Part shown: in pieces, positions 6,696 through 9,600 of the stretch
Position numbering within the stretch: the first letter of the stretch is position 1
Layout of the letters: each line of letters begins with the position of its first letter
Assembly: GCA_012026655.1 (NCBI GenBank)
Contig: JAAILG010000451.1
Span: forward strand, 1-64,000
Reading direction: 5' to 3'
DNA: 64,000 bases
Source: Hydrolagus affinis
Lineage: Eukaryota
The notes under the pieces: model-generated
Seen by the model: the letters and a program-made list of their open reading frames with translations, nothing else
What the model was told of the DNA's origin: nothing
Database searches by the model: none
Program-made: the position numbers and the translations under genes

Positions 6696-9600
6696 CTGGA
6701 ACACAGAAAGATACTTTCATTTTCGACATTTTTCACAGTTTCATTCTTTGAACGCAAATAATCAAAATAATAATCTCTGCATTTTGATACAGCGCCTTAT
6801 CGAAGTCGTTGAGGCATCTCGCAAAGCTTTTCACAGCATAATAATGTAAAGTGGATCGACTGGATTTGTATTTTGTGGGCGAAAATAAGGCAGCCAACAA
6901 GGGTAACAACACATCAGTGTTCCACAAACAGTCTTTCTAAAACGTGTCAATAAATAAGTAAATCACGTCAATAAAGAAAAATTGGTGCCAGGGCCGAGGC
7001 TTTCAATGGATCTTACATTTTTAAATTCCCGGAATGGCACAAACTGTACGATGTCTCGGAGCACGGGTTCCCCCTTTGGGGAGCGAAGGACTCCGTCATC
7101 GCCATCCAGGATCTGCATGTCTGTGAAGTCCGCGTTTCCCACCCCGACAATGATGATGGACATTGGAAGGTACGACGCTCTGACGATTGCCTCCCTCGTA
7201 TCAGCCATGTCAGTGACAACTCCGTCGGTCAGAATCAGCAAGATAAAGTATTTCTGCAGAGAGAAGAGAATCAGGAAATCAGCAGGATAAAGTATTTCTG
7301 CAGAGAGAAGAGAATCAGTATTGGACATGTCCCCTGGATAAGCTTTGGGGATACTCGTGCCGTGACGATGGGTTTCCGCGTTTGTCAGACACTCGCCCGA
7401 CCCCAATTATTATTTTTTTTAAATCACAACAAAGTGTTTGGTAAACCTTCTCTCGTTCAGCGAGGGAGAAGAGCTATGATTGTTTGCCATTTTTGTCAGA
7501 ATAAAGTCAACGCACAAGTGTTGCGCTGAAGACGGTGCATTTCCCGCACCACAGTTTGTAAGTGAAAGGAAAAATCGCTACCAATCGCTTTTCCCCAACC
7601 CAATGCCCTTTGTAAAGTAGACATACAGATGCTTCTTTGGTCTTCTCTTCGTCAGCAGCCACTTTAGCCACTTTGCCTATTATCGGAGACACATTGGTTG
7701 GCCCGTAGAGTTGGATTTTGGGTAAACAGCTCTGATACGACTCAACGACTCCCTGTACCCCTTAAACAAATGCAAAGTTCAGTTAGAATTGGCTTATTCT
7801 AACACACATATTCAGTACACTATGTTCGATAATATGTAACGAAAACTGACTGCACCTAAATGGGAATTCAGAGATTGATACAATTTCTTCCTTCTGAAAT
7901 CCTTACTTCCTCAGGATCGCATGCGACACCTGTGACAACGACAAGCTGCATTTATATAGTGCCCGCTCACGTGGTGTAGTGTCACAGATTGACAGAGAAA
8001 TAGGGGACGTCAACTATACTAGGAAATCATTTAAGAATGTTGCATTGCACTGAAGAATCCTTTCTAATGAGTGATAAAAATAATCACAATTATAGCGGAG
8101 CAGTTTGGAAACAACCATAAAAGGCTGGACAACCGCGAGTATAGTAGTAGATTTATTTCTGACGAAGGGTTGGAGACCCGAAACGTTGACTCTTTTTCCT
8201 TTCTCCATAGATGCTGCCTGACCTGCTGAGTTTCCCCAGCAACTTCTGTTTTTGTTTCAGATTCCCAGCATCTGTAGTATTTTGTGTTTTGTTGGTAGAT
8301 TTATTTTGTTGGGTACAGCTGCCTTTAAATTCAGATCATTAAATTGACAACTCATTTTTATTTAAAAACTCCTTGTTCGACAGCCAATATACAATAGTTT
8401 GTACTTTAGCACCAAAATAAATGAATAACAAGTGCCAGAATAATGGGGCCAATGTTTTGCTCTGCTCCATTAGTGATAGCTCTCGCCTATCCCTGGGCCA
8501 ATTGATCTTTTACACTCTGGAGTGAATGTAGCAATGTTTCCACTTACCTTCACACTCGTCATCTTCAGAATTGAAATTAATGGCAAAGTTGTGCGAAACC
8601 TGCAAACGACAGGAATTAAAAACCCTTTTTGTTTTGCAAGGGACTGTGTCCCATTCTAATCTAATCGGCTTTAGACAACAGATTGCATTTATTTTCTTGG
8701 GGGGCGTTGGGGGAAAGCAATCAGGAGGAAGGCATGATTAATAAACACAAAACCAGTTTGCAGTCCAGATTCTTTGATATCTCACGTGTGAAACATTCTG
8801 TTTCTTTTCACAGCAGTGAAAATCACATTTACAGTCTGGATATGGAGATAGCAACTGGCTAATGTGCGTTTTAATTTTCATTCCAATTTCCAAACGGAGT
8901 CTATCAGCCTTAAGTGCCCGTCGACTTGTTATTGTATATTAAACAAAGCAGTAATGTCATTTAATACAGGACGAAGAAATCTTAGTAGAAATTTGTGATA
9001 TTTCTATTGAATTTGTGTAGATTCAGTTACTGTTAGGCTTTAATCCAAGTCACCGGTGAAACATTCTAAGTTAGCACACTCCAGAAAATTTGTTATATTT
9101 CTATGAGTATCATACTTTGGGTTGAAATTTGCAGCCTTTGATAACAGATTTGAGATGATAATCACAGCAGTGAGTTACGAGCGCTCACCCACCCACCCAC
9201 CCACCCACCCACATCCACAGGTAATTTCCAACCATGCCTCAAGAATGGTTGAAAGATTATCAAAATATACAGTCAATTCACTTTACAATATATGCTGTGA
9301 ATTACTTTGAGACGTCTCAATGAAGTGAAAAGATGTTACAGTATATCAAATGCAAGGATTATTATCATTAAGTCCCATTGCACTTCTGTTCATTTTGCTT
9401 CAATAGAGGCAAAGTATTAATCTATATTAACAAATCATAAACAGTATGATTGTAGAAACATGAAAATGTAGAAACAGAATTAAATTTAAGCATGTAGTTA
9501 AATAATGAAGTGGAGAGTAGCGAGCATGTGCAACGTAGCAAAGAATCTCTGCCAAGTAGCACTTTTGGACTGATAAAAAAGGAAAAGATGGGCAGAACAG

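What the first reader, a model, noticed from the sequence alone, without database searches (positions are those of the whole stretch)
7233..7318. 44-bp tandem duplication of the CPNE7 exon-14 splice acceptor creates a decoy (poison) 3' splice site
Seen: aatcagcaRgataaagtatttctgcagagagaagagaatcag occurs at 7233-7274 and again at 7277-7318. The duplicate copies the polypyrimidine tract, the CAG and the first seven codons of the exon. In transcript order the duplicated AG (7298-7299) comes first; using it gives [11 protein letters not shown] (stop at 7271-7273), truncating the vWA domain before the ILTDG metal ligand. The stop lies well upstream of the last junction, so NMD is expected. Inference: this could be a young AS-NMD switch, a hypomorphic allele, or an assembly artefact.
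Basis: partly seen in the sequence, partly recalled or inferred. Interest (0 to 1): 0.7.

Follow-up and report, generated by a model that had tools for sequence, protein, structure and literature searches.

The report
Duplicated splice acceptor in chimaera CPNE7
In a chimaera (ghost-shark) gene for the calcium sensor CPNE7, a 44-base piece spanning an intron end and an exon start is doubled in some DNA samples and single in others; splicing likely uses the second copy and leaves the protein normal, as in known human variants, but no RNA was available to test it.

Summary
The duplication is real. Positions 7233-7274 and 7277-7318 match at 41 of 42 bases and copy the intron 13/exon 14 junction of an otherwise intact 558-aa CPNE7. 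One public DNA run holds the copy-to-copy junction (41 of 44 31-mers impossible from one copy), so it is not an assembly error. Three other runs, one with near-identical flanks, take the single-copy path: the allele is young and probably polymorphic. Which AG is used was not tested: the one RNA run laid had no exon reads. The two acceptors are identical from -21 to +12; the downstream one has the richer pyrimidine tract, a second branch-point-like motif and the whole exon behind it. Human CBS 844ins68 and SETD5 c.568-31_568dup and amphioxus 'mirages' use the downstream copy, so a near-silent allele is most likely (0.6); a leaky NMD hypomorph is the main rival (0.27). An evolved AS-NMD switch is unsupported. 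The scan noted this kind on other DNA before. New member of a known kind; low interest.

The parts
6558..34878 (-). CPNE7 coding span, 15 coding exons, intact 558-aa frame when the downstream AG is used
   Evidence: all GT-AG, no internal stop; 546/558 identical to Callorhinchus milii copine-7, about 92% to shark and ray copine-7
7627..7760 (-). coding exon 13; donor TCT|GTATGT after 7627, phase 0
7277..7318 (-). upstream (proximal, decoy) copy: branch-point-like motif (A at 7315), pyrimidine tract, CAG (AG 7299-7298), first 7 codons; derived synonymous base at 7285
   Evidence: single-copy runs carry the downstream copy's base (joint 7241->7286)
7275..7276 (-). 2-nt junction between the copies, matching neither flank exactly
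   Evidence: present in X1 contig 7242-7315 with 0 differences
7233..7274 (-). downstream (distal) copy: AG 7255-7254, in frame with the whole exon; branch-point-like A at 7271, further ones at 7279 and 7288 supplied by the upstream copy
7271..7273 (-). TGA met if the upstream AG is used (442-aa product, 254 nt before the exon 14/15 junction); it is part of the copied branch-point-like motif
7017..7253 (-). coding exon 14, 237 nt, phase 0-0, holds the TDG aspartate of the copine vWA domain
   Evidence: MIDAS D,T,S,T,D per PMC10968396 passage
6558..6695 (-). last coding exon (15)
7231..7238 (-). exonic 8-nt direct repeat of the intronic octamer at 7311-7318; the pair (36 nt apart in the single-copy allele) bounds the duplicated segment
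7347..7349 (.). site where all three single-copy contigs stop matching the window and run on (103, 97 and 25 letters); one resumes at 7349: likely an intron deletion of about 100 bp or more on the window's haplotype, about 30 nt upstream of the duplicated unit
   Evidence: table 8; polarity inferred, overhang letters seen for X12 only

Best explanation
This is a real 44-bp tandem duplication of the CPNE7 intron 13/exon 14 boundary, absent from three closely related DNA samples, in which the spliceosome likely uses mainly the downstream AG, so the upstream copy would be removed with the intron and the protein would be normal. Shown: the duplication, its presence in reads, the intact frame from the downstream AG, the stop from the upstream AG. 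Inferred: it arose by a repair or slippage event guided by the 8-nt direct repeat at its ends; it segregates as a polymorphism; the downstream site wins because it has the same core signal, a longer pyrimidine-rich run, a second well-spaced branch-point candidate and the full exon behind it; any leak to the upstream AG is predicted to be cleared by NMD and is a side effect, not a switch.
For: Junction in reads: X1 contig 7242-7315, 0 differences, 41 of 44 31-mers absent from the single-copy path. Single-copy path in X2, X9, X12. Gene otherwise intact, 97.8% identical to elephant-shark copine-7, so no sign of decay. Acceptors identical -21..+12; pyrimidine share at -40..-5 is 0.81 downstream against 0.64 upstream; yUnAy motifs at -18/-26/-35 against -18/-42; a GGGG run sits just before the upstream branch-point motif. 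The derived substitution lies in the upstream copy, as in CBS. [quoted passage not shown] Such duplications are expected by mutation alone: 7 in 599 kb of this genome, roughly 3-15 acceptor-spanning ones genome-wide before selection.
Against: No RNA from a carrier was examined. In CBS the distal choice is promoted by G runs between the two sites (PMC1802585 passage); none lies between these two. A reporter library found no order preference for tandem acceptors, with context deciding (bioRxiv 10.1101/392605). A 2,012-bp BRCA1 intron 9/exon 10 duplication is retained in mRNA, so upstream copies can be used (PMC11839443). The upstream copy keeps the ancestral intron context to -50 and a branch-point heptamer closer to consensus (TACTGAT against TCCTGAT). 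The motif counts are crude; no trained splice model was available. Cpne7-null mice reach six months, so persistence of the allele says little about its effect. Polymorphism rests on 1 of 4 informative low-depth contig sets of unknown species identity.
Confidence: 0.6

Rival explanations
1. Leaky hypomorphic allele: both acceptors compete, a sizeable share of transcripts uses the upstream AG (or skips the in-frame 237-nt exon 14) and CPNE7 output from this allele falls.
For: Core signals identical; no order rule for tandem acceptors; the CBS-type G runs between the sites are missing; stop 254 nt before the last junction; the two self-complementary octamers around the AGs can pair.
Against: Downstream site has the richer context; the three short-duplication precedents read used the downstream copy.
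Confidence: 0.27
2. Null allele: the upstream AG dominates, nearly all mRNA from this allele is destroyed or truncated before the TDG aspartate; the window shows a tolerated loss-of-function variant.
For: Upstream copy keeps native intron context to -50; BRCA1 case; Cpne7 loss is survivable in mouse.
Against: BRCA1 case copied 1,617 nt of exon, here 21 nt; no second lesion in the 558 codons, though a young null would show none.
Confidence: 0.07
3. Evolved, regulated AS-NMD switch that tunes CPNE7 level.
For: Only the geometry: alternative acceptor, stop 254 nt upstream of the last junction.
Against: Not conserved: absent in X2, X9 and X12, the last with 0 differences in 288 flanking letters; 0 of 135 fetched proteins show the upstream-AG junction peptide; the stop is an automatic by-product of the copied branch-point motif.
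Confidence: 0.03
4. Assembly artefact (two contig ends or two alleles joined with overlap).
For: Fragmented assembly (245,464 contigs); three runs show one copy.
Against: An independently built contig of run X1 spans the junction, including the 2-nt spacer and the substitution, with 0 differences; 41 of its 44 31-mers cannot come from one copy.
Confidence: 0.03

Closest known systems
Human CBS 844ins68 (c.[833T>C;844_845ins68]); PMC2630376, PMC1334203, PMC1802585, passages read
   Same: Short tandem duplication of an intron/exon junction giving two near-identical acceptors; a base change sits in the upstream copy; polymorphic; distal use gives normal mRNA.
   Different: 68 bp against 44 bp; in CBS G runs between the sites promote the distal choice, here there are none; the CBS change is a pathogenic missense that is rescued, here it is synonymous; CBS splicing is measured, this is not.
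Human SETD5 c.568-31_568dup; PMC9912651, passages read
   Same: Two competing nearby acceptors, first out of frame, second in frame; looks like a frameshift on paper.
   Different: About 31 bp with almost no exon copied; RNA-seq confirmed use of the second site; a private human variant.
Amphioxus 'mirage' repeats (Adh3, BflGb6, BflGb9); PMC3087553, passages read
   Same: Tandem copies spanning an exon-intron boundary that keep splice signals yet reportedly do not disturb splicing; copy number differs between haplotypes.
   Different: Mirages are mostly multi-unit, unstable minisatellites; this is a single extra copy, at most the seed of such an array.
BRCA1 partial intron 9/exon 10 tandem duplication, 2,012 bp; PMC11839443, passages read
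   Same: Acceptor duplicated, upstream use gives a premature stop.
   Different: 1,617 nt of exon copied and the duplicate is found in mRNA (not quantified); the counter-example.
Conserved poison-exon AS-NMD (SR-protein type; recalled)
   Same: An alternative splice choice introduces a stop well before the last junction.
   Different: Those are deeply conserved and regulated; this is absent from close relatives and no regulation is shown.

Membership tests
Acceptor-spanning short tandem duplication (CBS 844ins68 / SETD5 type) | Tandem copy includes pyrimidine tract, AG and start of the exon | tested here: met
Acceptor-spanning short tandem duplication (CBS 844ins68 / SETD5 type) | Upstream site out of frame, downstream site restores the normal protein | tested here: met
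Acceptor-spanning short tandem duplication (CBS 844ins68 / SETD5 type) | Exists in genomic DNA beside a single-copy ancestral allele | tested here: met
   junction in X1; single copy in X2, X9, X12
Acceptor-spanning short tandem duplication (CBS 844ins68 / SETD5 type) | Segregates within one species | tested here: inconclusive
   X1 and X12 are both near-identical to the window and share a study code, but carry no organism label
Acceptor-spanning short tandem duplication (CBS 844ins68 / SETD5 type) | Downstream acceptor used in RNA | not testable with these tools
   no RNA holder listed; X13 gave 5 partial reads, none on an exon
CBS 844ins68 specific mechanism | G runs between the two acceptors | tested here: not met
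   nearest G run is at 7334-7331, upstream of both sites; CBS feature
Mirage minisatellite | Multi-unit, length-unstable array across the boundary | tested here: not met
   2.0 copies; only one- and two-copy states seen
Conserved AS-NMD (poison) switch | Stop more than 50-55 nt upstream of the last exon junction (rule recalled) | tested here: met
   254 nt
Conserved AS-NMD (poison) switch | Alternative site conserved in related species | tested here: not met
   absent in three runs with about 0-1% flank difference
Conserved AS-NMD (poison) switch | Regulated use and NMD-sensitive isoform | not testable with these tools
   no carrier RNA
CPNE7 orthologue | Best matches are copine-7; C2-C2-vWA with MIDAS residues; RPL13 neighbour | tested here: met
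   PF07002; RPL13 exon at 63468-63641, neighbourhood in human recalled

The most novel reading that the evidence does not exclude
A segregating 44-bp duplication has created, in one step, a complete second acceptor with its own built-in stop, and a real fraction of CPNE7 mRNA is routed to NMD in carriers: a poison splice site caught at birth, tuning a dentine-related gene in a fish with ever-growing tooth plates, with carriers and non-carriers available for direct comparison.
Probability: 0.12. Interest if true: 0.5.

Novelty: new member of a known kind. Interest (0 to 1): 0.2.

Why it matters
If silent, it is one more natural example that a duplicated acceptor is absorbed into the intron, and a caution for gene annotation (a pipeline may call a frameshift or pseudogene). 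If leaky, it would be a clean natural test of how two acceptors identical from -21 to +12 are chosen without the G-run mechanism described for CBS, and a quantitative CPNE7 allele in a lineage with dentine tooth plates (mouse Cpne7 loss gives abnormal dentine). Neither case opens a new kind of mechanism.

Tried and rejected
X3 laid only repeat pieces, X10's contig ends at 7250 and X11 has no cover at the site: uninformative, not counted. RNA folding as a mechanism: the upstream AG is predicted at least 90% paired in 30 of 30 settings and the downstream AG in 26 of 30, but the working single-copy acceptor is also mostly paired in the control and the segment folds no better than shuffles (z 0.0); rejected as non-discriminating, including the idea that the 7285 change was selected to hide the decoy AG. 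Simple slippage between the two octamers would give a 36-bp in-frame unit, not 44, so the exact mutational route is unresolved. A second CPNE7 locus or alternative haplotype in G000 was not found: 8 matches, the other 7 at 70-79% identity are other copines. Searching G000 for the missing intron piece at 7347 gave three short repeat matches and did not recover it. Heterozygous against homozygous state in X1 cannot be read from depth 2.1. The primary CBS papers were not held. No MaxEntScan/SpliceAI-type model was available; a -20..+3 score would tie by construction.

Full report
1. Observation. The repeat is as described: 7233-7274 and 7277-7318, 41 of 42 identical, spacing 44. A 31-nt core occurs twice in the 1.11-Gb own genome, both here. 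The window has no N. On the minus strand the structure is: exon 13 donor after 7627; AG at 7299-7298; 44 nt; AG at 7255-7254; exon 14.

2. The gene. The 79-aa exon matches copine-7 entries at 94-99%. Exon mapping gives 15 coding exons, all GT-AG, and an uninterrupted 558-aa frame when the downstream AG is used. It is 546/558 identical to Callorhinchus milii copine-7, about 92% to shark and ray copine-7 and about 85% to lungfish and tetrapod ones, so the organism is a chimaera; the species was not determined. An RPL13 exon lies at 63468-63641, the neighbour I recall for human CPNE7. The upstream AG gives 442 aa ending KYFILLIS, before the TDG at residues 443-445; the copine MIDAS is D,T,S,T,D (PMC10968396, passages), and assigning this D as its last ligand is inferred. 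The stop lies 254 nt before the last junction, beyond the recalled 50-55-nt rule. Exon 14 is 237 nt, so skipping would be in frame (479 aa).

3. Real or artefact. Sixteen runs were listed and eight laid: seven DNA contig sets and one raw RNA run. Four DNA runs are informative at the site. X1 has a 74-bp contig at 7242-7315, depth 2.1, 0 differences; this is exactly the shared 33-mer plus the loop expected of a tandem duplication in a k=31 graph, and 41 of its 44 31-mers are absent from the single-copy path. The junction therefore exists in reads, whether or not X1 is related to the assembly's source. X2, X9 and X12 each have a contig joining 7241 to 7286, i.e. one copy with the downstream copy's base. 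Contigs drop rare variants, so these show a single-copy allele, not that the duplication is absent from those animals. X3, X10, X11 are uninformative. Differences in the locus pieces shown: X1 1 in 1,033 letters; X12 0 in 288 plus 2 in the 62 next to 7347; X2 8 plus a 4-letter gap in 852; X9 9 in 788. So the duplication is young, and probably polymorphic, though X1 and X12 carry no organism label.

4. Anatomy. The copied segment is bounded by an 8-nt direct repeat, once intronic and once exonic, 36 nt apart in the single-copy allele. The observed unit is 42 bp plus a 2-nt junction, so plain slippage does not explain it exactly; microhomology-guided repair is inferred. All three single-copy contigs stop matching at 7347 and run on for 103, 97 and 25 letters, and an X2 contig resumes at 7349 (table 8): the window's haplotype likely also lacks about 100 bp or more of intron 13 some 30 nt upstream of the unit. 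X1 has no cover there, and the missing piece was not recovered.

5. Which AG? Not shown. The sites are identical from -21 to +12 and -20..-5 pyrimidine share is 0.88 in both. Beyond that, the downstream site has 0.81 pyrimidines at -40..-5 against 0.64, yUnAy motifs at -18, -26, -35 against -18, -42, a 44-nt against a 36-nt AG-free zone, and the full exon behind it; the upstream site has a GGGG just before its branch-point motif, but the native intron context to -50 and the better heptamer. The 'poison' TGA is simply part of the copied branch-point motif. Folding did not discriminate. Precedents (passages only): CBS 844ins68, distal site strongly favoured, traces of another transcript, distal choice promoted by G runs between the sites, which are missing here; SETD5 c.568-31_568dup, second site confirmed by RNA-seq; amphioxus mirages do not interfere; BRCA1 2,012-bp duplication retained in mRNA; a reporter library found no order preference for tandem acceptors. 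PMC3265369 concerns intron gain from AGGT duplications, not applicable (this site is AG|AA). PMC2018619 gave no rule for this case. No supplements were read.

6. Base rate. In 60 non-random 10-kb stretches of long contigs (599,311 bases) a scan found 7 tandem repeats of 25-100-bp period at 90% identity or more (11.7 per Mb, 95% interval 4.7-24.1; 6 roughly two-copy), 0 in shuffles. With an assumed 150,000-200,000 acceptors this gives 11-15 acceptor-spanning events per genome before selection, 3-4 at 95%. An event like this is expected a few times per genome and needs no adaptive cause.

7. Verdict. Best reading: near-silent young allele, downstream AG used (0.6). Rivals: leaky hypomorph 0.27, null 0.07, evolved switch 0.03, artefact 0.03. 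Cpne7-null mice reach six months with dentine defects (PMC10928576, passages), so none of the first three is excluded by viability. I saw no report of this allele: the 15 listed of 351 papers for CPNE7/chimaera terms have no CPNE7 occurrence, and a sequence look-up in earlier scan notes was empty; this is a thin search. Earlier scan notes describe the same kind in other genomes, five of six reading the true downstream site as used or decoys as unused (unchecked AI notes, not evidence). New member of a known kind; interest 0.2.

Noticed in passing
window 7347-7349: Single-copy haplotypes (X2, X9, X12) carry extra intron sequence here that the window lacks; may be linked to the duplication as one complex event.
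   Followed up: partly
window 7092: X1, X2 and X9 all read C where the window has T (synonymous Gly codon in exon 14); the window base may be a private allele or a consensus error.
   Followed up: no
window 61720-64000 (-): 3' exons of RPL13 (PF01294 at 63468-63641) with an intronic C/D snoRNA, Rfam RF00324 snoMBII-202, at 63700-63782.
   Followed up: partly
window about 40185-40300 (-): Exon-like segment ending in a GTGAG donor with an upstream ATG, 5 kb before the CPNE7 start codon; possible 5' exon or alternative N-terminus. Seen by eye only.
   Followed up: no
window 51553-51714: Second two-copy tandem duplication, period 80, 90% identical, intergenic; a T-run in one copy is an A-run in the other.
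   Followed up: no
window 6938-6978: Decayed 21-bp tandem pair in intron 14 (80% identical).
   Followed up: no
window 20889-20960, 28895-28956, 31504-31574, 39311-39374, 42803-42874, 50314-50377: Six tRNA-model hits in introns and spacer, apparently heads of a tRNA-derived SINE family.
   Followed up: no
L005, L006, L008: Three near-identical copies of one other copine exon on separate contigs (same 79-aa translation), so that paralogue is multiplied or split by haplotype in the assembly.
   Followed up: no
window about 53000-54050 (+): GC-rich fragment that looks like the 3' end of an L2/CR1-type LINE; seen by eye.
   Followed up: no
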